64,000 bases of DNA from Bdellovibrionales bacterium. GTDB taxonomy: Bacteria > Bdellovibrionota > Bdellovibrionia > Bdellovibrionales > UBA1609. Positions within the stretch are counted from its first letter, which is position 1. Each line of letters starts with the position of its first letter. The position numbers and the translations under genes are program-made. Shown in pieces: positions 27,362 to 45,418 of the stretch. Where the stretch lies: positions 736,540 through 800,539 of the forward strand of contig OZ241911.1 in the NCBI GenBank assembly GCA_965203785.1, given 5' to 3'. The notes under the pieces are model-generated. The model was not told the DNA's origin and did not search any database. It saw nothing but the letters and a program-made list of their open reading frames with translations.

Positions 27362-28108
27362 TTAATCAATAGTAGAAAAATCTTTTGGTTTAAAATTAGC
27401 TTTGTTCGTAATACAAGCACTGTCACCTGTAGCCTTTATCACAAATAAACCTTTTTTTGTTGCATATAAATCAGCATTTTGATAAAGCTTTAAATAGGCT
27501 ATAGCTCCATAAATTTTTCGATCTTTATATTCTGGAAAAAACACAGTAAATTGCTTTAATGTTTCTAAAAAACGATCAACTGCATGAGCCCCTAAAGTAG
27601 ATTTTACCTCTGTAGCTACTAACTCGTGACCATTTCTGGCAATAATGTCAACCTCGCAACGCTTGCCTTTAATAGAATATGTTGCTTGATAATTAGGAAA
27701 TATACCTGTAACCTCGATACCTCTTTCTTGCAAAATCCTTAACAAACAACCTGATACTAGACTTTCTACTAACTCACCCCACTTGTTGCTAAATAAGTGC
27801 CTTAATTTTTTATCCTCTTTTGCCAATTCTTTTATCATACGATCAGTCTCTTGCATTCGACGATCGGTTTCTTTTTGGATTGCTCGTATTTCGAGTATGT
27901 CTTGATCATGTTTTTTTCGTGCTAAAGCGTTTTCCTGCTCATGTTTTTTTCGTGCTAAAGCGTTTTCCTGCTCATATTTTTTATGTGCAAGAGCAGTTTC
28001 TTGCTGATACTTTTTATGTGCAAGAGCAGTTTCTTTTAAAATAGAATAAATTTCATCAAAAGAAGGGGTTGTTTGTGGCATATTCTTAATACTCCTTATA
28101 AATAACAA
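27362..28108 (-). CDS. PD-(D/E)XK nuclease-fold protein with N-terminal coiled coil (DUF3782-like), family 'B'
   Basis: 248 aa with the nuclease-like core 'CEVDIIARNGHELVATEVKS'. It is a paralog of 44777..45418, sharing the C-terminus 'KKGLFVIKATG...ITNKANFKPKDFST'. Confidence 0.6.
   Translation of the reverse strand: MLFIRSIKNMPQTTPSFDEIYSILKETALAHKKYQQETALAHKKYEQENALARKKHEQENALARKKHDQDILEIRAIQKETDRRMQETDRMIKELAKEDKKLRHLFSNKWGELVESLVSGCLLRILQERGIEVTGIFPNYQATYSIKGKRCEVDIIARNGHELVATEVKSTLGAHAVDRFLETLKQFTVFFPEYKDRKIYGAIAYLKLYQNADLYATKKGLFVIKATGDSACITNKANFKPKDFSTID
27907..28038. repeat. 4 x 33-bp in-frame tandem repeat inside the family-B gene
   Basis: Units at 27907, 27940, 27973 and 28006 fall into two subtypes (2+2). 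They encode 'ETALAHKKYQQ/ETALAHKKYEQ/ENALARKKHEQ/ENALARKKHDQ'. Confidence 0.9.
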
Positions 28109-29603: not shown

Positions 29604-31604
29604 TTAAGAGGTATTTTTGCAAAAAAGGTTTTTTAATTGAGAAAATCTAGAAGGTTTGTATTTTTCATACTCTTCTTGTTTAATGTAGAGTCCCATAAAT
29701 TTTATCTTTTTTTGAGCTTGGTTTATATCAGTGCACCACTGATACAGTCTTTCTATTTTTTTAATATCATCTAAGTCTTCTCTTCCTTTAGTTTCTACAA
29801 TATAAATTTCTTTTTCAGATGTTTTTATTAAAAAATCAGGATAGTAATCTTTTATCTCTCCATTAGTGGTTTGGTAGTCAATTTTAAAATGAACAGAAAA
29901 ATAATTTTTAGCATAAGATATAATGTCATCACAATTTTTAAGAAAGCTTGCAAATTCTAATTCAAAATGACTGTCACCTACTATTTTATTAAATGCACTT
30001 TTTTTTGGGACAACAAAGCTTTGTTCTTTAATAACAAATGGGCGGGATTTACTAATTTTAATATAATCTCTAATTTCTACATCTCCTTTATCAACAACAG
30101 TCAGGTTATTTATTTCTTTCTTAAAGTTTTCAATAATTGTTTTTGTGACTTCTAATTCAGAAAGATTACGGAGAATATTCAAATTATCTAATTTAATTTT
30201 TTTTGTAAAAAGATAATTTATTATAAATTCTTTTACTTTTCCATATAAGATATCATGACTTCCAAATAACCGAAGTTCTTTTCTTATAGTTTCTGCAAAA
30301 TACCCAATAACACTTGAATAAGAAGGAATAAAATTACTATCAAATAAAGTTTTATGTGTTATTTCTCCAGATGTAATATCTCGAAATACAATTTCTTTTT
30401 TTTCTTCTTCACTAAATTGTTTTATTTCTATTTTTTTATGAGAGAATTGACTAGGATTTAATTCCGATAATTTTTTGTACTCTCTGCATATTCTTGGAGA
30501 TAAAATAGGGATTTCAATATCTAATTTTTGAATATCTTTTTTTATATTTTTCTCATCTATCTCTATAAGCAAAGGAGCATTTGGTTCTGTGCCTTCACCC
30601 ATTCTTTTGGTTTCTAATTCTACTCCTTCATGCTGTATAGATTCTACAAAATCCATAAAAGCAGGAGTGCCAACAACACTAACATATTCTGTAATATCTT
30701 CTCGTCCCCAATACATTCTTCTTAATCCTCTTCCTAAAGTTTGTTCTGGTAAAATATTACTTTGTGCAGTATAAGCTCGAAGACCTACAATGGTTGTAAC
30801 ATTTTTTACATCCCACCCTTCCTTTAGCATTAAAACAGATACAATAGCTTTATAAGGGCTTTGTTCTTTACTGGTATAAATACGTTGAATATTTGTAAGA
30901 AAAATGTTTCCAGTTTTTTTAACTAAACCAATGTTATCTTGTAAATGTAAGTTTAACTGAAAGTCATTTTTCCAGTTTTGCCCTTCAAAACCATTTTCTG
31001 GTAAAATAGGATCGTTAAAAAATATTTTAAGCCCTTCAAAGTCAGATCGAATACGATCTAAAACAATAATATTAGGTGTGATAATTAAAAAGTTTCTTGC
31101 CAGAGTGGAATGAGCTTCATAAAGTTTATGAAAAAAACTCCAAGCAACAAGTAAGCTTAGTACTTTTGTTTTACCTGTTCCTGTAGCCATCTTAATTACC
31201 ATTCTTAACCATTCTTCAGAAAATTGGCTTGAAGAAACAACACCAGAACTATCGTATCGAATGAGATCATATTTATTTTTAGCTTTAGCTACTTCGTAAA
31301 GAAAAATTACTGTTTCAATTGCTTCTCTTTGAGCAAAGTAATATTGAAAGTTAATTATACCTTCTTCTGTTTTTATAGGATGTTTTGTTTGAAATCACCA
31401 TTTAAGTAAGGTTTTGCTGGTGACACTTGCTCCTTCATATTGGCAATTTCTCCACTTTTTTATTTTCTGACGAAGTTTATGTACTAAAGGTGGTAGGAGT
31501 TTCCCATAGCCCCTTTGTCTTAAATCTTCATCTGCTGGAAACCAGCGAATGTCAGGATTCAGTATTTCATAAGGAGATTTTGGAAAATTTTTATGTAACG
31601 CCAT
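29604..31604 (-). pseudogene. Type III restriction Res-subunit-like DEAD/DEAH helicase, degraded
   Basis: ORFs 31395..31604 and 29604..31202 are in one frame, and the stretch 31203..31394 is open. They are interrupted only by TGA at 31395-31397, within '...SKTLLKW*FQTKH...FQYYFAQREAIETVIFLYEV...MATGTGKTKV'. Walker A is present, but no DExH box is visible before 'KAIVSVLMLKEGWDVKNV...QTLGRGLRR'. Confidence 0.75.
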
Positions 31605-32080
31605 TAGCTTTTAGTCTTTGCTGTAAATTCTATTTTTAATTCTTTAACAAATTCATAAATATTAATACACAGTATATTTTCTTTTTCACAAACATCAGGA
31701 ATTTTAATTTTTTTAGGTGCTTTTTGTTCTGCAGTAACCACTATAGCATTGTCACACTTAGCATGAGCTATTACCCAAGGGTCAGCCATAGACCTACCTT
31801 TTTGTTGATTAACCAATTGTGGATATGTTTTCATAATTTTTCTTAAATAAATTTGAACAGATTCATCAGGTTCTTTAAAAAGATCTGAAGTGTTAGTGAT
31901 CCATTTCAAAAGATCATCATCAATTTTTTTAATCTCATCTTTAACTTGCTTTGTGGCAAAAATTATACCTTTTTTACCTAAATTTTTAAGTAATTCCCAA
32001 TATCCTTTTGTAAATTGGGGAGAGTAGTATTTTGTCCAAGGTTCTATAAAAACATTGGTATCCAGGCAGTATTTTATCAT
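31604..32080 (-). CDS. DUF4411 PIN-like nuclease
   Basis: 158 aa. 'YCLDTNVFIEPW', 'ADPWVIAHAK' and 'AIVVTAEQ' are typical of DUF4411. It overlaps the upstream gene by 4 nt, and its stop overlaps the Res ATG by 1 nt. Confidence 0.75.
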   Translation of the reverse strand: MIKYCLDTNVFIEPWTKYYSPQFTKGYWELLKNLGKKGIIFATKQVKDEIKKIDDDLLKWITNTSDLFKEPDESVQIYLRKIMKTYPQLVNQQKGRSMADPWVIAHAKCDNAIVVTAEQKAPKKIKIPDVCEKENILCINIYEFVKELKIEFTAKTKS

Positions 32081-33297
32081 ATTGCACCTGTTGTTTTAAT
32101 AAGTTGATCTTTTATAGCTTTTTCCAAACTGTTAAGTTTCATGTCTAAGAGATTTGAAGCTTCTCTTCCAGTTAAGGTTCCTTCTTTATACGAGAAAAAT
32201 ACAATTTTTGTAAAACTTTCCCCATTGGCACGAATTTTTAAAAGGCTGGCATGAGGTCCACCTTTGTTTGTTTTCATTTTCTTCTCTAATTCATTTCTAT
32301 AGTGAGCAGATTCTTTGATATATTCTTTTTTAAGAGTTTCAAAAATACGAGGCTTTATAAGAGATAGGCTTTTTAATCTAATGAGCAAAGCCAGGCTACT
32401 CACTTTTAATTTTTTACAATTTAAATTTATAAATTCTTTTAATTTTTTATCTGTAAAATTACTTAATTTTGGAAAAGTTTTTATTTTTTTTTGTGGCATT
32501 AGTATTTCACCTGCTACTTGATTGCAAAAATATTCTGTATTTGATTTTTGAGCATTATTTTTTGGTAAAAAATGGTTAGGTACACCAGAAACATCTAACC
32601 ACAAGTGAGCTAGTTCGTGTAAAAGTGTAAATAATTTTGCACTATCAGAATCTTTTGAGTTAACAAAGATAAAAGGAGCATAAGGATCTGAAATAACAAA
32701 ACCCCTTGCTTCTTCAACTGGTATGGGGTTATGAGAATTTAAATTACTGGTGCGAGAAATAAAAATACCTTTTTTTTCACATTGATCGACCCAGTGGTTA
32801 AAAAGCACTCCTGTATTATTAATATCAGCTAACAATTTACAGTAGGTTTTTTCATTTTCCCAAATGGTATTTATAATATTTTGTGCGGTTTTTCTGACAG
32901 AAGATTTAATATTCATTGAGCCAATAAATGAAAGTTTATTATGTCCCTGTTCTTGTAAATATTGACTAAGCCAGGCTTGGCGTTCTTGTGTATGTCTCAT
33001 AAAGAATACTAATGGGGGACTATACTTAGGTTCTTTACCTCCCACAGTACGAAAATCTTTGAGCAAAGGAAAATCTCTTGGAGGGTGAGGAAGATAAAAA
33101 GCTGCCAGTGGTCTTCTATACACTTTTGACATTTTTTCAGCTTGTGCGAAGCTTGGTTTACTGATTCCTTGTTCCCAATCTTTTAATATATCTTCTGAAA
33201 TTCCTATTTTTTTAGAAGCTTCAGTAATAGAGTAGTGAGCTTTTTCTCTGGTCCATTTAATAACAGAAGGAGTAATAAGTGCTTTTTGTGTTTTCAT
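32077..33297 (-). CDS. XRE-type HTH fused to ImmA/IrrE (COG2856) zinc metallopeptidase
   Basis: 406 aa with the N-terminal HTH region 'ITEASKKIGISEDILKDWEQGISKPSFAQAEKMSKVY' and the HEXXH motif 'LLHELAHLWL'. Confidence 0.75.
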   Translation of the reverse strand: MKTQKALITPSVIKWTREKAHYSITEASKKIGISEDILKDWEQGISKPSFAQAEKMSKVYRRPLAAFYLPHPPRDFPLLKDFRTVGGKEPKYSPPLVFFMRHTQERQAWLSQYLQEQGHNKLSFIGSMNIKSSVRKTAQNIINTIWENEKTYCKLLADINNTGVLFNHWVDQCEKKGIFISRTSNLNSHNPIPVEEARGFVISDPYAPFIFVNSKDSDSAKLFTLLHELAHLWLDVSGVPNHFLPKNNAQKSNTEYFCNQVAGEILMPQKKIKTFPKLSNFTDKKLKEFINLNCKKLKVSSLALLIRLKSLSLIKPRIFETLKKEYIKESAHYRNELEKKMKTNKGGPHASLLKIRANGESFTKIVFFSYKEGTLTGREASNLLDMKLNSLEKAIKDQLIKTTGAI

Positions 33298-33479: not shown

Positions 33480-34643
33480 TTAAAAAGGAAGATCATCATA
33501 TTTTTGTTTTTTATTAGTTTTTTGTTTTTTAGCAATTAGTGTTTGGCTATCTATAATTTCAAAATGACTTTCTCCATTAATTTTTTGTATGGAATATCTA
33601 TTTTGGGTATGTTGAGATAAAATTTTGTCATTAAGTAACTCTGCATAATATCGACATTTGTTATTTTGTAATTGCTTTAAATGTTCTTCACTAATCCGAT
33701 CATATTTTGAACTAAAAGATAATAATACTGTAAGCTGGTTATTGTTTTCTGGATCTTTAATTGCAGTTACAATTTCTTCAATTTCTTGATCATTAAATTT
33801 AAAGTGTATTATATTCATCAATACTTGTCTTGCCCAATTAAAATCACTACCCTTAGCTTTAAGAAATTGATTTAAAAAATGCTTTTTAACAGACGAGTAT
33901 TGAGAAAACTCTTTTGTAATTAATCTAATTATATCACTAGTATTTGATTCAAGTTTTTTTACATCTAATGACATAGCTTGTATTTCACTTATAAACCCTT
34001 TTGGATCATAATTACCCAACTTTATGGGAATAATAGGAATATTTCTGGCTAATGCAAAACCAATTTCTTGATTCACCCACAAGCTTTTACAAGAATTTTC
34101 AGTAATGAGACAGAACATTATTTCCATTGAATTTAAAGCTTTTTTAATTTCCTGTTGCCATTGTTTTGCTGGTTCAATATCCTTATGAGCTACAAAACAG
34201 GAAAGATTATATCTTTTAAGATGGTCTTTTAATTTCTTTGCAATATCATAATTTTTTACAGAATGACTGATAAAAACTCTCAAACAATTTTTATCCCAAA
34301 AATCTGGAATTTTAGTATTCATAATTTTATTTTCTTTATAGATATTAAGATCAGCTTTGTATTCTAAAAATTCTTTTTTAGCTTCTTCAGGAAACAAATA
34401 TTGATACATGTCATACATTATTGTATTATCTAAGTTTTTAATAAGATTTAATATATTTTCATAAGAAAAATGTATATGATACGAATTACCAAAATCATCA
34501 TCTGTATAAAGTAAATCTTCAATTGAATCTTTGTCTTTTATATATTCTTCAATAAAAAAGAAGCCATTAGTTTTACCCATTTCTATAATTTTTTCTGTAA
34601 TTTTTGGGATAAATTCAAATCTTTGCTTCTTCGTTAAATTCAT
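33480..34643 (-). CDS. TIR-domain protein with unassigned N- and C-terminal regions
   Basis: 387 aa. Residues ~121-225 ('RVFISHSVKNYDIAKKLKDHL...CFVAHKDIEP...SLWVNQEIGFA') look like a TIR/DUF1863 fold with a candidate catalytic Glu193. An AAGGAG RBS precedes the ATG. The protein ends 'KYDDLPF'. Confidence 0.7.
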   Translation of the reverse strand: MNLTKKQRFEFIPKITEKIIEMGKTNGFFFIEEYIKDKDSIEDLLYTDDDFGNSYHIHFSYENILNLIKNLDNTIMYDMYQYLFPEEAKKEFLEYKADLNIYKENKIMNTKIPDFWDKNCLRVFISHSVKNYDIAKKLKDHLKRYNLSCFVAHKDIEPAKQWQQEIKKALNSMEIMFCLITENSCKSLWVNQEIGFALARNIPIIPIKLGNYDPKGFISEIQAMSLDVKKLESNTSDIIRLITKEFSQYSSVKKHFLNQFLKAKGSDFNWARQVLMNIIHFKFNDQEIEEIVTAIKDPENNNQLTVLLSFSSKYDRISEEHLKQLQNNKCRYYAELLNDKILSQHTQNRYSIQKINGESHFEIIDSQTLIAKKQKTNKKQKYDDLPF

Positions 34644-34680: not shown

Positions 34681-35553
34681 CTAAAAACTCATCTTCCAAT
34701 TATTAATTAGTTTATCTTCTTCATTATTGATTACTTCCTCTATATCTCCAGAATAACTTAAAACAGTCAATAATTTTCCATAAGAACCAAGACTCTGAAC
34801 TTCCTCCTTAACCTGGAGCAATTTATTTCCACTTAACCAGTTTCTAACATCAATTTCGTCTTCTTCATGTTCTATTTGAGAAAAGTATTTTTGATTTTTA
34901 TTGATTTTTGCTGTTAGTGAATTGGTTGGTACTGGGGATTTTTTGGTCGGCCAAACTAATTCTGGTAGAGATTTCATAGATTGAGACAGAAAACAAAAAT
35001 CTACTTTCATTCCCTTACTTACTATAACAGCGACAGCATCTTCAGATAAAGAAGTGTATCTAATAGCAGAAGAGATAAGAGAAGTTTTACAAGATTCTGC
35101 AATTTTTTTTATAGCGGAAAGTCCTGAAATATTTTTTCTAATTATAGGTTGAATTAAATTACTCGGCATTAACAAACCAGAGGCAAAATAATCTGCTTCC
35201 ATTTCATAAGAATCACTAGACACAAATCCAGAAGAAGATTGATGAGTACCATCTCCTTCATCAGGTAAAATATGATCCAAATGCCCTTCAAGAAAATAAT
35301 GACCTAATTCATGAGCAATAGAAAATCTTTGAAAACCTTCACTTTTAATATAAGTAGAATACATAATACCAAAAGAATTTCCATGTCGGAGCAATATACC
35401 TGATACACCTAAAGGGCAGACTTTTGGTTCAATCAGAATATTATGTTTATCGGCTACAGCTAATAAATCAATAGGTAAAGAATTATCTCCAGATTTTTTT
35501 GCAATATTTTCACCTTTTTGTGTTGCTATTTTTAGTTTAAAATTTTGATTCAT
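34681..35553 (-). CDS. ImmA/IrrE-family zinc metallopeptidase (CapP-like)
   Basis: 290 aa with HEXXH motif 'IAHELGHYFLEGH'. It overlaps the upstream HTH gene by 4 nt and is divergent from the CBASS operon. Confidence 0.75.
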   Translation of the reverse strand: MNQNFKLKIATQKGENIAKKSGDNSLPIDLLAVADKHNILIEPKVCPLGVSGILLRHGNSFGIMYSTYIKSEGFQRFSIAHELGHYFLEGHLDHILPDEGDGTHQSSSGFVSSDSYEMEADYFASGLLMPSNLIQPIIRKNISGLSAIKKIAESCKTSLISSAIRYTSLSEDAVAVIVSKGMKVDFCFLSQSMKSLPELVWPTKKSPVPTNSLTAKINKNQKYFSQIEHEEDEIDVRNWLSGNKLLQVKEEVQSLGSYGKLLTVLSYSGDIEEVINNEEDKLINNWKMSF

Positions 35554-35915
35554 GAATCTCGTTTTTTTGTGGCTTGTGAAGATTTATTCCGCTTTACCAA
35601 CATTTTGATAAAATCTTTAGCTAGTTTTAGATCATTTCCAGTTAGTTTGCTAAAATTTCTAAACAGAGGATCACCAAATGCAGACATTTCAGGATTATCA
35701 ACACGACCTAGTAGATAATCAGTAGTTACATTCAAAGCTATTGCCAATCGTCGCAAATTATCAAAAGAGGGTTTTCTTGAGCCAATTTCAAAGTGGGCAA
35801 TAGAACTTAGAGGCAAATTTGCATTTTTAGCTAACTCGCTCTGGTTCCATTGACGCACTACTCTGGCTATTTTAAGCCGTTTTTGGAACTTTTCAGAAGG
35901 TTTACTGTTACTCAT
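35550..35915 (-). CDS. XRE-family HTH transcriptional regulator (CapH-like)
   Basis: 121 aa. 'WNQSELAKNANLPLSSIAHFEIGSRKPSFDNLRRLAIALNVTTDYLLG' is a classic HTH_3 domain. Confidence 0.8.
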   Translation of the reverse strand: MSNSKPSEKFQKRLKIARVVRQWNQSELAKNANLPLSSIAHFEIGSRKPSFDNLRRLAIALNVTTDYLLGRVDNPEMSAFGDPLFRNFSKLTGNDLKLAKDFIKMLVKRNKSSQATKKRDS

Positions 35916-35938
35916 AATAAAAAATCGCCATAAAAAAA

Positions 35939-35976
35939 ATGTCTAACTTGACATATTATATTTTTGTTCCTAAATT
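35939..35976 (+). promoter_or_regulatory. Candidate CBASS promoter with overlapping inverted-repeat operator
   Basis: Inverted repeat ATGTC-N6-GACAT lies at 35939-35954. The plus-strand promoter is -35 TTGACA (35948-35953), a 17-nt spacer, then -10 TAAATT (35971-35976). A perfect TATAAT on the minus strand (35960-35955) faces the HTH gene. Confidence 0.45.
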
Positions 35977-36087
35977 ACCTCTAAAATGTAAATAATAAAA
36001 TGACGAAATCGCCAAGTCAATAGGAGTTATGAAAAATGTATGTATTATTACGAAGTGGTAATTTTTTAATAGTAGGAAGGAAGTATT

Positions 36088-37185
36088 ATGGATCAAAATA
36101 AGCCTTATAGAGTTCTCTCATTAGATGGAGGAGGTATGAGGGGTCTATATACAGCATCTGTCCTGCAATCTCTGATGAATTGCTTTTCCCAGTGTTCAAA
36201 TAGAGAAAACAAAGATATTGGAAAAGGTTTTGATCTAATAGTTGGAACGAGTACAGGAGGAATCTTAGCTTGTGGATTAGTCGCAGGTATTCCTATTAAT
36301 AAAATGATAGAGCTTTATTCTAAAAAAGGAAACAAGATATTCACTAATCCTTTTCCTTCTAAAGGAATTTTCAAAACATTACGTTGGATATTTAAGAATA
36401 GCTGTAAAACTGCAAACTCCAATAATATTCTAATCCAAGAATTACAAAATATATTCCACAATAAAACAATGGAACAAATCTATAATGAGAGGCAAGTTGG
36501 ATTATGTATTACTGCTGTTAATTTAATGGATCATTCCCCTAGGGTTTTCAAAACTCCCCATGATCCATTAAAAAATGTGGACAATAATAGAAAGTTAACG
36601 GATATATGTTTAGCTACTTCTGCTTTTCCTATATTACTTCCTATTGCACATATTCCTGATCCAGGAGGAAATAATATTTACGAAGATTTTGTAGATGGTG
36701 GTTTATGGGCAAACAGTCCTATTTTAGTGGCTTTAGTGGAAGCTATAACCTGCTCTAAAAAAGAGCAACCAATAGAAATTATATCTATTAGTTCTTGCTC
36801 TCCTTCAAAAGGTCAAACAGTTTTGGAAAGAGATATAAATAAAGGTTTGAAAGGATGGCGAGCTGGCATTCAACCTTTGGAGCTTTCAATGGATGCTCAA
36901 TCAAAATCTAATCATTTTGTTAGCGACTTTTTATGTACTCAATTAAATAAATTAGGGAAATATATTACAGTTGATCGTTTAAAGCAAAAATCTCCTTCTG
37001 CAGAGCAAGTAGATTTTTTTTCTATGGATCGAGCAGATGAACACACTTGCTCAATGTTAATAAAATGGGGAAAAAAAGATGCAGAAGAAATTTATGGGAC
37101 AATAATCAGAGAAAATAAATATAATATATTAAAAGCAATTTTTACTAATTTACCAAATCTAAAAGGAGGAAATAATCATGGCTAA
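36088..37185 (+). CDS. Patatin-like phospholipase, CBASS effector (CapV/CapE-like)
   Basis: 365 aa with oxyanion 'DGGGMRG', nucleophile 'GTSTGG' (Ser55) and the Asp dyad in 'FVDGGLWANSP'. An AGGAAGG RBS precedes it, and it overlaps the next gene by 8 nt. Confidence 0.85.
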   Translation: MDQNKPYRVLSLDGGGMRGLYTASVLQSLMNCFSQCSNRENKDIGKGFDLIVGTSTGGILACGLVAGIPINKMIELYSKKGNKIFTNPFPSKGIFKTLRWIFKNSCKTANSNNILIQELQNIFHNKTMEQIYNERQVGLCITAVNLMDHSPRVFKTPHDPLKNVDNNRKLTDICLATSAFPILLPIAHIPDPGGNNIYEDFVDGGLWANSPILVALVEAITCSKKEQPIEIISISSCSPSKGQTVLERDINKGLKGWRAGIQPLELSMDAQSKSNHFVSDFLCTQLNKLGKYITVDRLKQKSPSAEQVDFFSMDRADEHTCSMLIKWGKKDAEEIYGTIIRENKYNILKAIFTNLPNLKGGNNHG

Positions 37186-38185
37186 TATACAAAAACAATT
37201 AGAGGTATTCCATAAAAATATCAAAGTTGAATCCAGCGAATTAAGAGAAAAAAGAGATATTATTTTAAATAAAATAAGAAAATCTCTTTCTGAAGATAAA
37301 AAACCTATCCCAGAAGTTCTAAATCAAGGAAGTTATATATATGGAGTGGGAATCAAACCTGTTTCAGAAGAGGACTATGATATTGATGTAGGACTTGATT
37401 TTAATATTAAATCTTCAGACTACAATGCGGAAGCAGTTAGAAAATGGGTTTATGATGCAATCAAAAAACATACAGATAAAGTGCAAAGTAAAGGACCTTG
37501 TATTCGGGTTATATATCAAATAGGTTATCATGTTGATCTTGTATGTTATGCCAGATATAAAGATAATGATCTAACTGAGAATTTTCAATTAGCCCATAAA
37601 AACGGTTTATGGATGCCATCTGATCCTAAAAAAATAAAATATCATATTCAAAAAGCCAGAGAAAAGTTTAAAGACACAAAAGACAGTAGTGGTTCAGATC
37701 AATTACAAAGAATAGTCCGATATTTTAAAAGGTGGAATGACTTAATGATTGTAGCTGAATCTAATGACAAACCTATTGGTTTGGCAATTTTGCTTTATTG
37801 CATTGAAACATTGCCATTCTCTACTTGTGATTCTAAAGGTGATTTAGATGACTTACAAGCTCTTATAATTATTTCTGAAAAAGCGAAACACAGTACCAGA
37901 ATTTGTGTCAAAAAACCAGATACTGAAGAAGATGTCTTTAGTAAAATAAGCGAAAAAGGAATGACAGAGCTTATCATTAAATTTCACAAATTATATGAAG
38001 CTTTATTAAATGCAAGAAATTCTGATTGTTTGGAGGACGCTTGTAAAATAATGAGAGAGCAATTTGGAGATGATTTTCCATTGGAAAAAAATGATGAAGA
38101 TAAAAATAAAACAAAAGCTTCTCTTTTATCAGCAACAGTTTCAAGTTACTCAACTTCCTTTAAACCTTATGGACAAACAAAATGA
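37178..38185 (+). CDS. CD-NTase (cGAS/DncV-like nucleotidyltransferase, SMODS)
   Basis: 335 aa with the Pol-beta NTase signature 'QGSYIYGVGIKPVSEEDYDIDVG' (G51-S52, D68, D70). 'YHVDLV' supplies a third acidic residue (D120). It overlaps the next gene by 4 nt. Confidence 0.8.
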   Translation: MANIQKQLEVFHKNIKVESSELREKRDIILNKIRKSLSEDKKPIPEVLNQGSYIYGVGIKPVSEEDYDIDVGLDFNIKSSDYNAEAVRKWVYDAIKKHTDKVQSKGPCIRVIYQIGYHVDLVCYARYKDNDLTENFQLAHKNGLWMPSDPKKIKYHIQKAREKFKDTKDSSGSDQLQRIVRYFKRWNDLMIVAESNDKPIGLAILLYCIETLPFSTCDSKGDLDDLQALIIISEKAKHSTRICVKKPDTEEDVFSKISEKGMTELIIKFHKLYEALLNARNSDCLEDACKIMREQFGDDFPLEKNDEDKNKTKASLLSATVSSYSTSFKPYGQTK

Positions 38186-38865
38186 CTTTACCTTGGTGGA
38201 TAATAAAAAAAGAACTTTATAAGCAAGTTATCAAAGATGTTAGTCAATACCATGGGCTACGTTATTGTATAGAGTACAACAAATTTATAATTTGTGGTGC
38301 TTGGCCAGTATATGGTGGACCTATAAGAAAAGTCCACCTTGAAGATTTTTTGATAAAGATTGTTTTTCCTAATAATTACCCAGATGACCTTCCAAAAATA
38401 TATGAAACAGGTAATAGGATAAAAACAAAAAATGCAGATACTCACTTTTATATAGATGGTTCTGCTTGTTTATTTTTTCCCACGGAGAGATATTTACATT
38501 TTCCAAAAGGCAAGGTTTTTCAATTAAAGAATTTTTTAGACGGACCAGTTAACAGCTTTTTTTTCTCACAATTACATTATATTTGTCACAAAAAATGGCC
38601 ATTTGGTCAGCGTTCACATGATATAGCAGGTTTATTAGAATTTTATGGGGAAAATTTAAGTATACCATGTAATCAAAAAAGTGTTTTAGAGGCTTTATCT
38701 TATTTATTAAAACCACAAATAAAAGGACATTGGCCTTGTCCTTGTGGGAGTGACAAAATAAGAAAATGTCATGTTAAAAACTTCAGATTGTTAAACGAAA
38801 AAATTCCTAAAAAAAATGTCATGCGAGATATAAAGTTTTTAGAAAAAAAATCTATTACGATATAG
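38182..38865 (+). CDS. E2 (UBC-fold) ubiquitin-conjugating-like protein, E2-only Cap2-type, with C-terminal SEC-C-like motif
   Basis: 227 aa. 'LIKIVFPNNYPDDLPKIYETG' followed by 'THFYIDGSACLFFP' resembles the UBC core (His88, candidate catalytic Cys96). The C-terminus carries 'HWPCPCGSDKIRKCH'. No E1 or JAB domain is present. Confidence 0.65.
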   Translation: MTLPWWIIKKELYKQVIKDVSQYHGLRYCIEYNKFIICGAWPVYGGPIRKVHLEDFLIKIVFPNNYPDDLPKIYETGNRIKTKNADTHFYIDGSACLFFPTERYLHFPKGKVFQLKNFLDGPVNSFFFSQLHYICHKKWPFGQRSHDIAGLLEFYGENLSIPCNQKSVLEALSYLLKPQIKGHWPCPCGSDKIRKCHVKNFRLLNEKIPKKNVMRDIKFLEKKSITI

Positions 38866-38969: not shown

Positions 38970-39974
38970 ATGACAGTAAAAAATAAACAACAATTAGACA
39001 ATATTTCTATAAAAAAACTAGCTAGTCCACATGATAGATTTTTTAAAGGTGCTTATTCTAAACTTGAATTTGTGGTTGAGATTTTTAAACTTATTTTCTC
39101 TAAAAAGGAATTTAATGCTTGTAATTGGAAATTGCTAAAAACAGAAAAAGATAGTTTCAAAGATAAAAGAGCAGATCTTGTCTTTTCTGTCCCACTTAAG
39201 AACACTCCAAAAACTAACTTAAGAATTTTTATTCTGTTAGAGCATAAATCCAGTTATAATCCTCAACTCTTTACCCAACTACTTAACTACCAGACTTATA
39301 TCCATGAGCAAACTCTTAAAGAATCTGGTCGTCCTCAACCTGTTATCCCTGTTTTGTTCTACCATGGGAAGACAGTTTGGAAGTGGAAACTCTCTTTCCA
39401 AGAGGCTTTTTTTGGGGAGTTTTTTGCTAAAATTCCTGTTGATTTTCGAAAAAATATGCTAAACTACAGATTGAAATTATTGGATGTTCAAGATCCGAAA
39501 GTAAACAAGGTTTTAAGAGATAAGAGTTTTAAAAGCCGTGGGATTTTGAATTTATTTAGGAATATTTGGTCTCTAAAAATGAATGAGGCTGAGTTGTTGA
39601 AGATTTTACTTTTGTTTGGTAGGTTTTTAAATAAAGATGATGATTTAGTATTAAATTTGTTGGATTATTTTAAGGCTTTTGGGATGAGCCGTGTATTATG
39701 GCAAAAAGTAGAAAGATCGGCTGTTCAAAAGGGGATATTTCAAAGAGGAGGCTACATGGATATAAAAGAACATTTTAAAGAAGAAGGTCGATTGGAAGGC
39801 ATACGAAAAGGCAGACAAGAAGGTAGACAAGAAGGCAGACAAGAAGGTCGTCAAGAGTGCAGGCAAGAGGTTATTTTAAATATGCTAAAAGAAAAAGCAG
39901 ATATTACTTTTATTTCTCAAGTAACAGGGTTATCTAAGAAAGAAATAAAGAAGCTAAAAAATAGCTCAAAGTAG
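38970..39974 (+). CDS. Rpn-family recombination-promoting nuclease / putative transposase (YhgA-like PD-(D/E)XK)
   Basis: 334 aa. 'PHDRFFKG', 'RADLVFSVPL' and 'ILLEHKSS' are typical of the Transposase_31/Rpn N-terminal nuclease domain. The C-terminal tail has a GRQE repeat. Confidence 0.8.
   Translation: MTVKNKQQLDNISIKKLASPHDRFFKGAYSKLEFVVEIFKLIFSKKEFNACNWKLLKTEKDSFKDKRADLVFSVPLKNTPKTNLRIFILLEHKSSYNPQLFTQLLNYQTYIHEQTLKESGRPQPVIPVLFYHGKTVWKWKLSFQEAFFGEFFAKIPVDFRKNMLNYRLKLLDVQDPKVNKVLRDKSFKSRGILNLFRNIWSLKMNEAELLKILLLFGRFLNKDDDLVLNLLDYFKAFGMSRVLWQKVERSAVQKGIFQRGGYMDIKEHFKEEGRLEGIRKGRQEGRQEGRQEGRQECRQEVILNMLKEKADITFISQVTGLSKKEIKKLKNSSK
39810..39869. repeat. 5 x 12-bp in-frame tandem repeat (GRQE)n in rpn
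   Basis: The units are ggcagacaagaa / ggtagacaagaa / ggcagacaagaa / ggtcgtcaagag / tgcaggcaagag. Confidence 0.9.
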
Positions 39975-41224: not shown

Positions 41225-41932
41225 TTGTATAATTTAGAACAGACTAAAATAAAAAATATTATAATATTTTTTATAGTAATTGTTTTTTTACCAGCTTGCT
41301 TTGGTAGAAGAAATAATAATGCTCAACAGGGAAACTCTCAACCACAAAGAACCTCTCAAAACATACCTAATACACAAACTCGAACTGTCACTAACACTAC
41401 ACAACCTATTCAACCCAATCAATTTGGTCAAAGGAATGTTGCTGGAGTGGCTAATACACAATTTAACAATCCTCGTACTCGTATGAACACTACCTGTAGC
41501 TGGGGTTTTGTAGGACCTAAAAGATTTAATTGTTTAAATAACACTTATGTTTATGGTTCTGTAATGTGTGGTGTAAATGTCAGACAAGCGTTTTGTGAGC
41601 AACGTTTTAGTCACGATGTTTCTACTTGCATAGCAGACAATTCACCAAACACTCAATCGTGCAATCAACAAATGCAAAGACAAAGAACGTCATCAACAAC
41701 AGATGGATCAGTTATTCCGGATCCAACTTGTAATTTTGGTTCTATAGGACCAAGGTTTGTTAGCTGTGATGGTAAAGATTATGCGTATATTGGTTCTGCA
41801 ATATGTAATTTACAAATTTATAACCGTATATTTTGTGAGAGAAGACTTATTAGCAATATTCAATCTTGTATAGCAGATAATAGAGCGGATACTTTGCTTT
41901 GTTTAGGGCAACATTTTCCAAATGGATTTTGA
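41225..41932 (+). CDS. Exported Cys-rich protein with an internal domain duplication (possible lipoprotein)
   Basis: 235 aa with a TTG start and the signal 'IIIFFIVIVFLPAC'. A Q/N/T-rich linker is followed by two ~60-aa six-Cys repeats ('TCSWGFVGPKRFNC...CIADNSPNTQSC' and 'TCNFGSIGPRFVSC...CIADNRADTLLC'). Confidence 0.5.
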   Translation: MYNLEQTKIKNIIIFFIVIVFLPACFGRRNNNAQQGNSQPQRTSQNIPNTQTRTVTNTTQPIQPNQFGQRNVAGVANTQFNNPRTRMNTTCSWGFVGPKRFNCLNNTYVYGSVMCGVNVRQAFCEQRFSHDVSTCIADNSPNTQSCNQQMQRQRTSSTTDGSVIPDPTCNFGSIGPRFVSCDGKDYAYIGSAICNLQIYNRIFCERRLISNIQSCIADNRADTLLCLGQHFPNGF

Positions 41933-41974: not shown

Positions 41975-43186
41975 TTAAATTTTCTGGCAAACAATAATAT
42001 ATTCTGTATGCATAGTGTTCACCTTTTTTCCAACAACATTTGTGGGGGAGTTTTGGGCAGGCATAGTTTTTGATGAAATCAATCGTTCATAAGTGAGAAC
42101 ATGTGTAAAACCATTTTTTTCAAATTGTTCTGCAATAAATTGATCAGTTGGCAAAGTAATATTTTTAACAGTTCTGTTGCCAACCACATAAATAGAAAAT
42201 CCTTTATTTGTAATACTTTGAGAAACCTCTTTAATAGATTTTTCTAAATCTATATAAAAAGAAGAAACCTCTAAAGCTCTTTTATAGTTAATGTTACTTA
42301 TTTTTTTAATAGGTGAAGATAAAACTCCTTTGTTATATAAATTTTTAGCTTTCTTTCCTCCCATTAGTTGAGAATCAATTTTTCTGGCACTTGGGAAACC
42401 AATCCACTCATTAGAAAGAGTGGAAAATTGTCCATAAGCTACCGTTGTTTTACTATCTCCATAAGGTGGACTAGTTAATACAGCATCATATTTGTTTTTT
42501 TGGCATATAAATTCCCTATTATAAAAATAAAACTTTTGTTTTTTAAGCAAAGATAGATACACTTCTGTATAATTAGTTAAAATTTTATCTAAATTTTTGA
42601 AATACAATTCAAATACATCTGGATTAAAAAGTTTTCTCTTTTCTTCTGTCATCCTATAAAGCTTAAATTCACTATTTCTGGTATAAGAAACAAATCGGAC
42701 TGTTTCAGAAAAAGCAAGCCAAAATAAAAGTTGGTATTTTTTGTTATCCACTTCTTCCAATATAGAGTGTCTGATAATTGATAAATCTTTAATTATTCTA
42801 TTAGAGAACCAAAAGTTAATGTTTGTTACAAAAGGGGGTAAAATGTTTTCTTCTTCATAATAAATAGCATATTCTATATTTTTTCTGTATTCAGAAAGTT
42901 TTTTTGTATTAAGTTTTGTATATTTTGCTTTGGCAATCAAAATAGCTAATGGGTTTATGTCGAAACCATGAAATTCTGAAAAACCAGAAGCAATCCCCGC
43001 CAATACAGAAGAACCTGTGCCACAATAAGGATCTAATAAGTAATTTTTATTGATTTTTAATTCTTTAAAAAGTTCAATACCAATTTGAGGTAACATGGTT
43101 GCCGGATATTTATGAAGATTAGGGAATCGAGTAGAATAACTTTCCCCTTTAAAATCATAACTATTATTTATTTGCATCTCATACAT
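41975..43186 (-). CDS. DNA methyltransferase (N6-adenine or N4-cytosine), apparently orphan
   Basis: 403 aa. The AdoMet motif I 'LLDPYCGTGSSVLAG' (aa ~50) and catalytic motif IV 'LTSPPYGDS' (aa ~238) are separated by ~185 aa. No adjacent endonuclease-sized ORF is present. Confidence 0.75.
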   Translation of the reverse strand: MYEMQINNSYDFKGESYSTRFPNLHKYPATMLPQIGIELFKELKINKNYLLDPYCGTGSSVLAGIASGFSEFHGFDINPLAILIAKAKYTKLNTKKLSEYRKNIEYAIYYEEENILPPFVTNINFWFSNRIIKDLSIIRHSILEEVDNKKYQLLFWLAFSETVRFVSYTRNSEFKLYRMTEEKRKLFNPDVFELYFKNLDKILTNYTEVYLSLLKKQKFYFYNREFICQKNKYDAVLTSPPYGDSKTTVAYGQFSTLSNEWIGFPSARKIDSQLMGGKKAKNLYNKGVLSSPIKKISNINYKRALEVSSFYIDLEKSIKEVSQSITNKGFSIYVVGNRTVKNITLPTDQFIAEQFEKNGFTHVLTYERLISSKTMPAQNSPTNVVGKKVNTMHTEYIIVCQKI

Positions 43187-44776: not shown

Positions 44777-45418
44777 TTATGCAGTAGAAAAATCCTTTGG
44801 CTTAAAATTAGCTTTGTTCGTAATACGAGAACTATTACCAGTTGCTTTTATTACAAATAACCCTTTTTTTTCAGCATATTTGTCTGCTCCTTTTTGTATC
44901 CTTAAATAAGCCATAGCACCATATACTACCTTGTCTCTATACTCCCTAAAATAACGAGTAAAATCCTTTAACACATCTAAAAAATCGTTTACATCTTGTT
45001 TGTTGCAATCACTTTTGACTTCTACAGCTACTACCTCTTTACCGTTACGAGCTAAAATGTCAATCTCACATTCTTTATCTTCCTCACGAGCTTTAGTGGC
45101 TTTAATAACCCCTTGTAACCTTCTTGTTGTACCATCAATTTGAATACCTTTTTCTGCTAACCTCTTTAATAAATCCCCCTCTACTAAACTCTCTACTAAC
45201 TTACCCCAGTTGTTACTAAAAGTACCAAAAGCTTTGTCTATTTTTTTATCAGTTGCCTTTTGAATCTCTTGCATCTCTTGCTCCCACTTTTTACGCTCAA
45301 GGGCTAGCTCTTTTGTATACTTTTTACGATCCAGAGTAATCTCTTTTAAAATACGTCTAATTTCTGCAAAAGTAGGTGCAGATTGAGCCATTTGTATTCT
45401 CCTTTTTTTTTGTTCCAC
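44777..45418 (-). CDS. PD-(D/E)XK nuclease-fold protein (DUF3782-like), family 'B'
   Basis: 213 aa with core 'CEIDILARNGKEVVAVEVKS'. It is a paralog of 27362..28108 and lacks the expanded 33-bp repeat. Confidence 0.6.
   Translation of the reverse strand: MEQKKRRIQMAQSAPTFAEIRRILKEITLDRKKYTKELALERKKWEQEMQEIQKATDKKIDKAFGTFSNNWGKLVESLVEGDLLKRLAEKGIQIDGTTRRLQGVIKATKAREEDKECEIDILARNGKEVVAVEVKSDCNKQDVNDFLDVLKDFTRYFREYRDKVVYGAMAYLRIQKGADKYAEKKGLFVIKATGNSSRITNKANFKPKDFSTA

What the first reader, a model, noticed from the sequence alone, without database searches (positions are those of the whole stretch)
36088..38865. CBASS operon of the E2-only ('type II short') class with a patatin effector
Seen: three start/stop-coupled genes (8-nt and 4-nt overlaps). 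The first is a patatin phospholipase (GGGMRG, GTSTGG, DGG). The second is a CD-NTase (GS...DID...D signature). The third is a 227-aa UBC-like protein (H88...C96 in 'THFYIDGSACLF'). No E1/adenylation domain or JAB peptidase gene is present. Established: effector-cyclase-Cap2(-Cap3) is the V. cholerae capV-dncV order. E2-only variants were catalogued as type II short CBASS, and their regulation is much less studied than full Cap2/Cap3 systems.
Basis: partly seen in the sequence, partly recalled or inferred. Interest (0 to 1): 0.65.

Follow-up and report, generated by a model that had tools for sequence, protein, structure and literature searches.

The report
E2-only CBASS operon with CapH/CapP regulators
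This is an intact, ordinary anti-phage CBASS system (membrane-destroying lipase, signal-making cyclase, small ubiquitin-type E2 helper).

Summary
Three translationally coupled genes (8-nt and 4-nt overlaps) encode a CapV-type patatin phospholipase, a CD-NTase with an intact GS/DxD/D active site, and a 227-aa UBC-fold E2. No E1 or JAB similarity occurs anywhere in the 64-kb window.

- A divergent capH–capP regulator pair lies directly upstream (34681-35915, minus strand), so the conserved module is 34681-38865.
- The cyclase is clade B (closest to DwCdnB and BfCdnB). It is not clade G, the clade of the only characterised E2-CBASS (Serratia marcescens).
- The E2 belongs to a separate, large lineage: a UBC core, a WPFGxRSH motif and a C-terminal SEC-C zinc motif.
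- Cyclases partnered with this E2 lineage, across several cyclase lineages, end in [K/R]-P-[W/Y/H]-x plus a 1-8-residue tail. A same-clade cyclase followed by Cap2/Cap3 ends in ...SSSA.

The operon sits in a low-GC defence island of a small-genome bacterium whose nearest relatives are labelled Bdellovibrionales. Every component is already covered by PADLOC models, so this is a new member of a known kind. Interest is modest.

The parts
36088..37185 (+). capV: patatin-like phospholipase effector (365 aa). GGGMRG 14-19, nucleophile Ser55 in GTSTG, Asp203 in DGG.
   Evidence: Pfam Patatin 5.8e-26. PADLOC CBASS phospholipase effector PDLC00758 1.3e-91. NCBIfam CBASS_lipase 225 bits, cutoff 200. Solved CapV 8zr9 7.7e-30 over residues 6-337. 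Motifs.
37178..38185 (+). CD-NTase, clade B-like (335 aa). Active site G51-S52, D68, D70, D120. Flexible C-terminal tail from about residue 301, ending K329-P330-Y331-G332-QTK.
   Evidence: Pfam DncV-like_NTFase, SMODS and DncV_C. PADLOC cyclase PDLC00795 3.9e-82. PDB sequence hits: DwCdnB 3.4e-38, BfCdnB 7LJO 2e-17, DncV 2.7e-6. AF2 model pLDDT 88.9, with residues 301-335 at 64 falling to 43. Foldseek: DwCdnB TM 0.8, E 1e-22. Tail motif statistics.
38182..38865 (+). E2 (UBC fold) with a C-terminal SEC-C-type zinc motif (227 aa). H88, C96, W139-PFGQRS-H146, C186-P-C188-G...C196-H197.
   Evidence: PADLOC E2 PDLC00865 2.4e-49; no Pfam or NCBIfam hit. Invariant and near-invariant residues in 34 homologues. 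AF2 pLDDT 92.9. Foldseek top hits all UBC/UEV. Family profile against PDB: E2 2h2y 2.7e-5 and SecA zinc motif 1ozb 6.8e-5.
35550..35915 (-). capH: HTH (Xre-type) repressor, 121 aa. Candidate CapP cleavage site F85|R86 in DPLFRNF.
   Evidence: PADLOC capH 8e-23. Pfam HTH_3 2.8e-10. F/Y-R is conserved in the four homologues read (L007, L009, L003, L041) and matches the mapped F82|R83 site of E. coli MS115-1 CapH. Numbering.
34681..35553 (-). capP: M78/IrrE-type zinc metallopeptidase, 290 aa. HELGH 81-85. Overlaps capH by 4 nt.
   Evidence: PADLOC capP 3e-59. Pfam Peptidase_M78 3.1e-10. Solved CapP 7T5T 7.3e-6 with HExxH aligned. Motif.
35916..36087 (.). Divergent control region. Promoter-like site on + (TTGACA 35948-35953, 17-nt spacer, TAAATT 35971-35976). 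Promoter-like site on - (TTGACT 36020-36015, 17-nt spacer, TATTAT 35997-35992). Palindrome ATGTC-N6-GACAT at 35939-35954 overlaps the + strand -35 and is a candidate CapH operator. Direct repeat AAATCGCCA at 35922 and 36006.
   Evidence: the consensus scan is not above shuffled background for the region as a whole. The block ATGTCTAACTTGACATATT is all but invariant in the two closest loci, with one substitution in L009. GACAT-like repeats recur in intergenic regions of more distant CapH-bearing loci L003, L041 and L050. Operator function is inferred, not shown.
33480..34643 (-). TIR-domain gene (387 aa; TIR 123-227; putative catalytic E193). It lies 37 nt downstream of capP on the same strand and has its own RBS. 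It may be co-transcribed with capH-capP. Membership in the system is uncertain.
   Evidence: Pfam TIR_2 4.5e-20. PADLOC ThsB-like 1.2e-9. 8btn 2e-4. A homologue (1e-77) is in the same position in L007, but in L009 one sits elsewhere (5e-45, downstream of E2 on the opposite strand), and other relatives have none in the DNA fetched. Sequence of the junction.

Best explanation
This is a complete type II-short (E2-only) CBASS anti-phage module under CapH/CapP transcriptional control.

Proposed mechanism, step by step:
1. CapH (an HTH dimer) sits on the shared divergent promoter region and keeps capV-cdn-E2 at a low level. This is inferred by homology.
2. DNA damage or ssDNA activates the CapP metallopeptidase. 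CapP cuts CapH at F85|R86 and derepresses the operon. This is inferred from the E. coli MS115-1 system.
3. The clade-B CD-NTase makes a cyclic dinucleotide, most likely a 3'3'-cGAMP-type signal. The inference is weak. It rests on the effector passing NCBIfam's 'cGAMP-activated phospholipase' cutoff and on the cyclase's sub-threshold cGAS-family score.
4. The E2 primes or regulates the cyclase without any E1. By analogy with S. marcescens E2, Cys96 (helped by His88 and possibly His146) attacks the peptide bond after G332 in the flexible K-P-Y-G|QTK tail. The short tail is released, a cyclase~E2 thioester forms, and the cyclase is then passed to a lysine. The energy comes from the peptide bond rather than from ATP, which would explain why partner cyclases in every case examined keep a short leaving tail after the motif. 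This step is inferred.
5. The nucleotide signal activates the CapV patatin phospholipase. CapV degrades membrane phospholipids and kills the infected cell before phage release (established for CapV homologues).

Shown here: gene identities, intact catalytic motifs, predicted folds, conserved synteny and the tail-motif association. Everything enzymatic is inferred. The confidence of 0.85 applies to the identity of the system (type II-short CBASS with CapH/CapP). For the specific covalent E2 mechanism in step 4 I would give about 0.5.
For: The catalytic residues are intact and invariant in homologues. The UBC fold is supported. Clade B assignment rests. No E1/JAB similarity exists in the window.

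The same layout, capP-capH divergent from capV-cdn-E2, occurs in every Bdellovibrionales relative examined (L001/L009, L002, L006, L007, L008, L050) and in Legionella septentrionalis (L003).

The E2 lineage always follows effector-cyclase, with at least four different PADLOC cyclase models and two effector types.

106 of 118 full-length cyclase homologues carry [K/R]-P-[W/Y/H] within the last 14 residues, against about 0.007 expected, and always with at least one residue after the following position. The motif is also seen in 27 of 28 partner cyclases in the related loci, which belong to several different cyclase lineages.

A 48%-identical same-clade cyclase ending ...AIITSSSSA is instead followed by Prok-E2_B+ThiF and JAB.

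C96, H88 and H146 parallel the functionally mapped C101, H87 and H152 of SmE2 (Cys-to-second-His spacing 50 vs 51). The CapH F|R site is conserved.
Against: No experiment was done. The nucleotide product is unknown, and clade B enzymes are poorly characterised. The cyclase scores 134 bits on NCBIfam cGAS, below the 150 cutoff.

The window's E2 showed no hit to SmE2 or Cap2 in the PDB sequence searches (one search returned only 5 hits at E<=1; one search listed only the best 60 of 138), so the mechanistic analogy is across lineages. No lysine sits at the position equivalent to SmE2 K159.

In other partner cyclases the residue after the aromatic is not always small: R in 14 of 106, and L, M or V in acidobacterial loci. 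In SmCdnG, G406V and G406L abolished linkage. The cleavage or attachment site may therefore differ, or the tail may only be bound and not conjugated.

The Ub-like helix/beta-sheet element that recruits SmE2 is absent. The promoter-like hits are not enriched over shuffles.
Confidence: 0.85

Rival explanations
1. The third protein is a non-covalent adaptor or regulator. It would use its UBC-like groove and/or SEC-C zinc knuckle to bind the [K/R]-P-[W/Y/H] tail of the cyclase, for example holding it inactive or localising it, without forming a thioester or isopeptide.
For: The residue after the aromatic is variable (G, A, S, C, R, L, M, V), which is unlike a ubiquitin-type Gly/Ala attachment site. 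There is no lysine at the SmE2 K159-equivalent position. UEV domains, which are non-catalytic, are among the top fold hits. The Ub-like recruiting element of SmCdnG is absent.
Against: C96 is invariant and H88 nearly invariant in 34 diverse homologues, and C96 aligns with the catalytic Cys of true E2s. UEVs lack that Cys. An invariant H146 sits at the SmE2 H152-like spacing. A leaving tail is present in all 106 motif-bearing homologues, which fits cleavage.
Confidence: 0.2
2. The functional unit is larger. CapH/CapP would control two defence arms from one divergent promoter: CBASS on one side and the TIR-domain gene (33480-34643), co-transcribed with capH-capP, on the other.
For: The TIR gene is 37 nt downstream of capP on the same strand, with no terminator-like site between them. 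A homologue (1e-77) occupies the same position in L007, and a more distant one (5e-45) lies 1.3 kb downstream of E2 in L009. The putative catalytic Glu is present.
Against: The gene downstream of capP differs in other relatives: an unknown 277-aa gene in L001, HsdM in L002, and a divergently oriented S24 repressor in L003. The TIR protein has no recognised SAVED, STING or other cyclic-nucleotide sensor domain. Defence genes cluster anyway, so adjacency is weak evidence.
Confidence: 0.25
3. The operon is a full type II CBASS whose E1 and JAB functions are supplied in trans from elsewhere in the 1.4-Mb genome, or it is a decaying remnant that is no longer functional.
For: Only 64 kb of the genome was available. 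The island contains clearly degraded genes (a broken type III restriction-like gene at 29604-31604) and a transposase-like gene next to E2.
Against: All five genes are full length against their models with intact catalytic residues. The same E1-less layout is conserved in many genomes from several phyla. Cyclases that do pair with Cap2/Cap3 have a different C-terminus.
Confidence: 0.05

Closest known systems
Serratia marcescens E2-CBASS (SmCdnG-SmE2; PDB 8HSB/8YJY; Yan et al. bioRxiv 10.1101/2022.05.25.493364; Xiao et al. mLife 2026, PMC12948482)
   Same: E2-only accessory with no E1 or JAB. The E2 has a UBC fold with a catalytic Cys, an upstream His and a second His about 50 residues downstream. 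The cyclase ends in aromatic-Gly followed by a short leaving tail (Y405-G406-E407 in Sm, Y331-G332-QTK here).
   Different: The cyclase here is clade B and 335 aa, not clade G and 407 aa. Its C-terminus is a low-confidence flexible tail without the helix plus three-stranded sheet that recruits SmE2. The E2 is 227 aa with WPFGxRSH and a SEC-C zinc motif, against about 18 kDa for SmE2. SmE2 was not among the hits returned in the PDB sequence searches. There is no K159 equivalent. The Sm papers read here do not state the effector class of that operon, so effectors were not compared; the one here is a patatin.
Vibrio cholerae capV-dncV-cap2-cap3 (type II CBASS)
   Same: Gene order effector-cyclase-E2. 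A CapV patatin effector, with NCBIfam CBASS_lipase above its cutoff. The cyclase has a disordered C-terminal tail.
   Different: There is no E1 (ThiF) domain and no Cap3/JAB. The cyclase is clade B, not A (DncV only 2.7e-6). The tail keeps extra residues after the putative attachment residue.
CapH/CapP regulators of E. coli MS115-1 and Thauera sp. K11 CBASS (Lau et al., bioRxiv 10.1101/2022.04.27.489752; PDB 7T5T)
   Same: A divergently transcribed HTH plus M78 peptidase pair. HExxH is present. An F|R site lies at the start of the CapH C-terminal domain. Association with type II CBASS and phospholipase effectors has already been reported.
   Different: Low sequence identity to the solved CapP (E 7e-6). 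In this window a TIR gene follows capP.
Deinococcus wulumuqiensis DwCdnB (8YSC-8YSS) and Bacteroides fragilis BfCdnB (7LJO)
   Same: Closest solved cyclases: 30% and 24% identity, TM about 0.8. The active-site motifs align.
   Different: The window's protein matches the DwCdnB 'Ear-cut' mutant slightly better than the wild type, which suggests it lacks that insertion. I found no paper on DwCdnB, so its product and partners are unknown to me.

Membership tests
CBASS (any type) | CD-NTase with the GS...[DE]xD...D nucleotidyltransferase active site | tested here: met
   G51-S52, D68, D70 and D120. They align to DwCdnB and are invariant in 37 homologues. Pfam DncV-like_NTFase, SMODS and DncV_C are above their gathering scores.
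CBASS (any type) | Adjacent effector gene of a recognised CBASS class in the same operon | tested here: met
   Patatin/CapV, PADLOC 1.3e-91, NCBIfam CBASS_lipase 225 bits above the 200 cutoff. It overlaps the cyclase gene by 8 nt.
CBASS (any type) | Confers phage resistance through cyclic-nucleotide-activated cell death | not testable with these tools
   Needs plaque assays and nucleotide analysis.
Type II-short (E2-only) CBASS | Accessory gene with a UBC/E2 fold and a catalytic cysteine | tested here: met
   AF2 pLDDT 92.9. Foldseek top 50 hits are all UBC/UEV. C96 is invariant and aligns with the E2 catalytic Cys. PADLOC E2 2.4e-49.
Type II-short (E2-only) CBASS | Absence of an E1 (ThiF/adenylation) domain and a JAB/Cap3 peptidase | tested here: met
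   The E2 is 227 aa with no ThiF hit. A six-frame phmmer search of the whole window with Cap2 and Cap3 from L049 gave no hit at E<=10. The rest of the genome was not available.
S. marcescens-type CdnG-E2 system | Clade G CD-NTase | tested here: not met
   Closest to clade B (DwCdnB, BfCdnB). SmCdnG ranks 39-40 by fold, and CdnG gives no sequence hit at E<0.01.
S. marcescens-type CdnG-E2 system | C-terminal helix plus three-stranded beta-sheet on the cyclase that recruits E2 | tested here: not met
   Residues 301-335 are low confidence (pLDDT 64 falling to 43), with only a weakly predicted helix and no sheet.
S. marcescens-type CdnG-E2 system | Conserved C-terminal Gly followed by removable residue(s); E2 Cys plus His catalytic pair | tested here: met
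   Y331-G332-QTK. C96, H88 and H146 are conserved. The comparison is by motif and spacing only.
S. marcescens-type CdnG-E2 system | Covalent cyclase-E2 thioester and isopeptide (K159) linkage | not testable with these tools
   There is no Lys at the equivalent spacing after H146. Biochemistry is needed.
CapV (cGAMP-activated patatin phospholipase) | Patatin Ser-Asp dyad with a GGGxRG oxyanion motif | tested here: met
   GGGMRG 14-19, GTSTG 53-57, DGG 203-205. Aligns to solved CapV 8zr9 over residues 6-337.
CapV (cGAMP-activated patatin phospholipase) | Activation by 3'3'-cGAMP | not testable with these tools
   Supported only by the family score. A cUMP-AMP-activated relative (9iom) also matches, at 2e-12.
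CapH/CapP regulator pair | HTH repressor plus M78/IrrE-type HExxH peptidase, encoded divergently upstream of the immune operon | tested here: met
   PADLOC capH 8e-23 and capP 3e-59. HELGH 81-85. Solved CapP 7T5T 7.3e-6. Divergent, with a 172-nt intergenic region.
CapH/CapP regulator pair | CapP cleavage site (aromatic|Arg) at the start of the CapH C-terminal dimerisation domain | tested here: met
   F85-R86 in DPLFRNF. F/Y-R is conserved in L007, L009, L003 and L041, against F82|R83 in E. coli. The motif is present; cleavage itself was not tested.
CapH/CapP regulator pair | ssDNA- or DNA-damage-stimulated cleavage and derepression | not testable with these tools
   Needs in vitro cleavage and reporter assays.
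CD-NTase clade B | Groups with CdnB reference enzymes rather than clades A or C-H | tested here: inconclusive
   The best sequence and fold matches are DwCdnB and BfCdnB (CdnB04), by wide margins. No phylogeny with the full Whiteley reference set was built.

The most novel reading that the evidence does not exclude
The UBC + WPFGxRSH + SEC-C E2 lineage may be a distinct, E1-independent conjugation or processing enzyme. It would recognise a portable C-terminal tag, [K/R]-P-[W/Y/H]-x plus a 1-8-residue leaving tail, that has been acquired by several unrelated CD-NTase lineages. It would act by transpeptidation at residues that are often not Gly or Ala, so it would not be simply a longer copy of the S. 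marcescens E2. The SEC-C zinc knuckle would add a function that SmE2 lacks, such as localisation or substrate capture.
Probability: 0.3. Interest if true: 0.55.

Novelty: new member of a known kind. Interest (0 to 1): 0.33.

Why it matters
As a system this is a routine CBASS annotation: each component matches an existing PADLOC model, so standard defence-finding tools should recognise it. Its value is as a clean, intact example of the minority class of E2-only CBASS (clade B cyclase, SEC-C-bearing E2, CapH/CapP control). All current mechanistic knowledge of E2-only CBASS comes from one clade-G system with a different E2 and a different recruiting element. The tail-motif/E2 association found here gives a simple testable prediction: mutate Y331 or G332, delete QTK, or mutate C96, H88 or H146. 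That would show whether E1-free 'self-priming' of CD-NTases is general across E2 lineages. It also adds a small-genome lineage labelled Bdellovibrionales to the hosts of CapH/CapP-controlled CBASS.

Tried and rejected
- An exact look-up of the window's E2 in the contig index found nothing. Organism identity therefore rests on relatives, which are 'Bdellovibrionales bacterium' MAGs at 55-73% E2 identity.
- The first genome scan with the 34-sequence alignment failed for lack of a conserved stretch. It was repeated with an 11-sequence subset.
- Searches for the papers behind PDB 8YSC-8YSS (DwCdnB) and for BfCdnB products found nothing usable, so the nucleotide product remains unassigned.
- A search for 'SEC-C' with 'CBASS' returned only unrelated lactococcal work.
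- I considered the Rpn/YhgA gene downstream of E2 as part of the system and rejected it, because the gene after E2 differs in every relative.
- I considered hidden Cap2/Cap3 genes in the window and rejected that.
- Operator definition: only a 5-bp-arm palindrome and GACAT-like repeats were found. The promoter scan is not enriched over shuffles, so these stay candidates.
- I could not measure C96/H88/H146 distances, because model coordinates are not exposed.
- The Rfam scan found only three tRNAs.


Full report
**1. Observation**

The three ORFs exist exactly as described: 36088-37185 (365 aa), 37178-38185 (335 aa) and 38182-38865 (227 aa), all on the + strand. The junctions overlap by 8 nt and by 4 nt (ATGA). 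Shine-Dalgarno-like sequences precede the first two genes, and the third is start/stop coupled.
- Patatin: GGGMRG 14-19, GTSTG 53-57, DGG 203-205.
- Cyclase: G51-S52, D68-I-D70, D120.
- Third protein: H88...C96.

**2. Identity of the three genes**

Gene 1 is a CapV-type patatin phospholipase.
- Pfam Patatin scores 5.8e-26, and the PADLOC CBASS phospholipase effector model scores 1.3e-91.
- NCBIfam 'CBASS cGAMP-activated phospholipase' scores 225 bits against a curated cutoff of 200.
- The closest solved structure is CapV 8zr9 (7.7e-30, residues 6-337).

Gene 2 is a CD-NTase.
- Pfam DncV-like_NTFase, SMODS and DncV_C are all above their gathering scores, and the PADLOC cyclase model scores 3.9e-82.
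- The active-site residues align with the Deinococcus wulumuqiensis CdnB crystal sequence and are invariant in 37 homologues.

Gene 3 has no Pfam or NCBIfam hit, but it matches the PADLOC E2 model PDLC00865 at 2.4e-49.
- An AlphaFold2 model built on 34 homologues is confident (pLDDT 92.9, pTM 0.85) and has the helix / four-strand / helix order of a UBC domain.
- All of the top 50 Foldseek matches in the PDB are UBC or UEV proteins, such as UFC1, TSG101-UEV and UBE2A.
- A profile of the family hits eukaryotic E2s with C96 aligned to the catalytic cysteine (2.7e-5). Separately, it hits the C-terminal zinc-binding peptide of SecA (6.8e-5).

The 'no E1, no JAB' statement also holds for the whole window. 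A Cap2 (Prok-E2_B+ThiF) and a Cap3 (Prok-JAB) from a related system (L049) find nothing in any reading frame at E<=10.

**3.

Two genes lie directly upstream on the minus strand, separated from capV by a 172-nt intergenic region.
- 35550-35915 encodes a 121-aa HTH protein (PADLOC capH 8e-23).
- 34681-35553 overlaps it by 4 nt and encodes a 290-aa M78 peptidase (PADLOC capP 3e-59) with HELGH at 81-85. It matches the solved CapP 7T5T at 7.3e-6.

CapH/CapP is a described CBASS regulator. CapH represses the operon, and ssDNA-activated CapP cleaves CapH between F82 and R83 in E. coli MS115-1. The pair has already been reported with type I, II and III systems and with phospholipase effectors.

The window's CapH has F85-R86 in DPLFRNF, and an aromatic-Arg pair is conserved at that place in the four homologues read.

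The intergenic region contains face-to-face promoter-like hexamers for both directions. As a set, such hits are not enriched over shuffles. There is also a palindrome, ATGTC-N6-GACAT (35939-35954), overlapping the -35 of the CBASS-side promoter. The block ATGTCTAACTTGACATATT is all but invariant in the two closest loci, with one substitution in L009. GACAT-like repeats recur in more distant CapH-bearing loci. I treat this as a candidate operator only.

**4. Conservation of the module**

The E2 has 61 detectable homologues in the word-indexed database. In the exhaustive search of 50%-identity representatives it has 3042 at E<=1e-3, 2259 at E<=1e-10 and 955 at E<=1e-30. It is a large family.

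Its nearest relatives (55-78% identity) are in 1.3-3.0 Mb assemblies, and those named in the genome collection are labelled 'Bdellovibrionales bacterium'. The window's own contig is 1.41 Mb.

In every one of those relatives, and in Legionella septentrionalis, the layout is capP-capH divergent from capV-cyclase-E2.

In more distant genomes (Acidobacteriota, Alphaproteobacteria, Thermodesulfobacteriota) the same E2 lineage still follows effector-cyclase, but with other partners:
- a roughly 300-aa cyclase (PADLOC 00803) with a Cap4-like SAVED endonuclease;
- a roughly 415-aa cyclase (00770/00780) with a patatin;
- a 00783-type cyclase.

The E2 is therefore a portable CBASS accessory. The conserved unit in this window is 34681-38865.

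**5. How this differs from the characterised E2-only CBASS**

The only E2-only system with biochemistry and structures is Serratia marcescens CdnG-E2.
- Its E2 (about 18 kDa) trims E407 from the cyclase and links G406 to C101 as a thioester, or to K159 as an isopeptide.
- H87 is essential and H152 modulates the reaction.
- The 407-aa clade-G cyclase carries a C-terminal helix plus three-stranded sheet that recruits the E2.
- About 74% of catalogued E2-CBASS cyclases are clade G.

Here the cyclase is clade B by both sequence and predicted fold.
- DwCdnB scores 3.4e-38 by sequence, and Foldseek E 1.4e-22 with TM about 0.8.
- BfCdnB (7LJO, CdnB04) scores 2e-17, and DncV scores 2.7e-6.
- SmCdnG ranks only 39-40 by fold.

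Its last 35 residues are a low-confidence flexible tail with no sheet.

The E2 is 227 aa. Its conserved residues are:
- invariant: C96, G142, H146, C186-P-C188-G189 and C196;
- nearly invariant: H88, W139, P140 and H197.

This amounts to a UBC core, a WPFGxRSH motif and a SEC-C-type zinc knuckle. Neither SmE2 nor Cap2 appeared among the hits returned in sequence searches of the PDB (one search returned 5 hits at E<=1; one search listed the best 60 of 138).

The constellation C96, H88 and H146 mirrors C101, H87 and H152 of SmE2 (Cys-to-second-His spacing 50 vs 51). There is no lysine at the K159-equivalent position.

**6. A C-terminal tag on partner cyclases**

The window's cyclase ends ...F-K329-P330-Y331-G332-Q-T-K.

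Among 118 full-length homologues, 106 have [K/R]-P-[W/Y/H] within the last 14 residues. The same dipeptide occurs at 0.0006 per position elsewhere in these proteins, so about 0.007 occurrences are expected. The next residue is G, A, S, C or T in 84 of the 106, and it is always followed by 1-7 more residues.

The same ending appears in 27 of 28 partner cyclases in the related loci, which belong to several different cyclase lineages. Examples are ...KPWMDLT...RPWLPEE...QPWAK and ...APWCDKG.

Eight of the 12 exceptions end in ...SSSA or ...GRFA with no extension. One of them, 48% identical to the window's cyclase, is followed by Prok-E2_B+ThiF and JAB genes (L049). A 'TERPWRNK' variant is followed by a divergent SEC-C E2.

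Within one cyclase clade, then, the two tail types checked for context each go with a different accessory gene.

My reading, which is inference, is as follows. An E1-dependent Cap2 needs a free C-terminal carboxylate. An E1-less E2 must take its acyl group from a peptide bond, so it needs a leaving tail. The non-small residues at the +1 position in some lineages are the main caveat, and they keep a non-covalent 'tail-binding' rival alive.

**7. Most likely mechanism**

1. CapH represses the operon.
2. DNA damage or ssDNA activates CapP, which cuts CapH at F85|R86 and derepresses it.
3. The E2 processes or conjugates the cyclase tail at or near G332 through C96 and H88, which primes the enzyme.
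4. The clade-B cyclase makes a cyclic dinucleotide, probably of the cGAMP type.
5. CapV is activated and destroys the membrane, giving abortive infection.

Steps 1-2 rest on homology to E. coli CapH/CapP. Step 3 rests on analogy to SmE2 plus the tail statistics. The product in step 4 rests only on family scores. The trigger that reports phage infection to the cyclase is unknown.

**8. Context**

The operon lies in a low-GC stretch (0.297, against 0.343 in the flanks). The stretch sits between core genes: EF-G, RecG and GlnII on one side, and ScpA, BioB and ArgS on the other. It is packed with defence-type genes:
- a PDC-S01-type AAA_14/DUF4143 gene;
- a broken type III restriction-like gene;
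- a DUF4411(PIN) + HTH-M78 pair;
- a TIR gene;
- the CBASS module;
- an Rpn/YhgA transposase-like gene;
- a type II methyltransferase.

tRNA-Ala and tRNA-Gly lie at the far edge.

The TIR gene sits 37 nt after capP on the same strand, and a homologue occupies the same position in one relative (L007). That raises the possibility that CapH/CapP control a second arm. Other relatives carry unrelated genes in that position.

**9. Verdict**

The finding is real and correctly interpreted. Each component matches an existing PADLOC model, CapH/CapP association with type II CBASS is published, and E2-only CBASS now has a mechanistic paradigm.

What remains open is whether that paradigm transfers to this different and widespread E2 lineage and its [K/R]-P-[W/Y/H] tag. 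I rate it a new member of a known kind, with interest about 0.33.

Noticed in passing
window 33480-34643 (-): A 387-aa TIR-domain protein (TIR_2 4.5e-20; ThsB-like; putative catalytic E193) with uncharacterised N- and C-terminal regions. It lies 37 nt downstream of capP on the same strand. A homologue is in the same position in L007 and elsewhere in L009. No ThsA-like partner was seen among the neighbouring genes scanned.
   Followed up: partly
window 31604-33297 (-): A 4-nt-overlapping pair: an HTH_3 + Peptidase_M78 protein (406 aa; PADLOC RmrA-like 9e-20) followed by a DUF4411/PIN-like protein (158 aa, 3.9e-43). This looks like a toxin/antitoxin-style or defence pair, and it is a second IrrE-type peptidase within 3 kb of CapP.
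   Followed up: partly
window 29604-31604 (-): A type III restriction-like gene (ResIII + RE_endonuc) that appears degraded. The 532-aa ORF starts at the Walker A motif, a 69-aa fragment lies about 190 nt upstream, and the helicase core looks internally shortened.
   Followed up: no
window 28281-29420 (-): An AAA_14 + DUF4143 ATPase matching the PADLOC candidate defence gene PDC-S01 (9.3e-57).
   Followed up: no
window 38970-39974 (+): An Rpn/YhgA-family (Transposase_31) gene immediately after the E2, with a GRQEGRQEGRQEGRQE repeat near its C-terminus. It is not conserved next to the E2 in relatives.
   Followed up: partly
window 41975-43186 (-): A type II DNA methyltransferase (PADLOC MTase_II 1.4e-100; no Pfam hit) with no obvious cognate endonuclease nearby. 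It may be an orphan.
   Followed up: no
window 27362-28108 (-) and 44777-45418 (-): Two proteins with weak PADLOC matches to CARF/PD-(D/E)xK and Csx1-type models (about 1e-5). Function unknown.
   Followed up: no
L001/L009 (L001 5834-6850): In the closest named relative (OZ241877.1) a DDE_3 transposase is inserted at the 3' end of capV, leaving a short capV fragment before the cyclase gene. That copy of the system is probably disrupted.
   Followed up: no
protein P0280 (637 aa): A natural fusion of this E2 lineage (residues 4-218) to a SAVED-type sensor domain (PADLOC SAVED/effector models around 1e-27 to 1e-32). This suggests the E2 can be physically linked to the nucleotide-sensing side of CBASS.
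   Followed up: partly
proteins P0074, P0080-P0085, P0088, P0090-P0092, P0115; locus L050: A subgroup of close cyclase homologues ends in ...TERP[W/Y]R(x)K, with Arg after the aromatic. It pairs with a much more divergent SEC-C E2 (30% identity to the window's E2), again with CapH/CapP and a patatin.
   Followed up: partly
window 41225-41932 (+): A 235-aa ORF with an N-terminal hydrophobic segment and two internally repeated Cys-rich halves. It may be a secreted or lipoprotein-like protein. It was not analysed.
   Followed up: no
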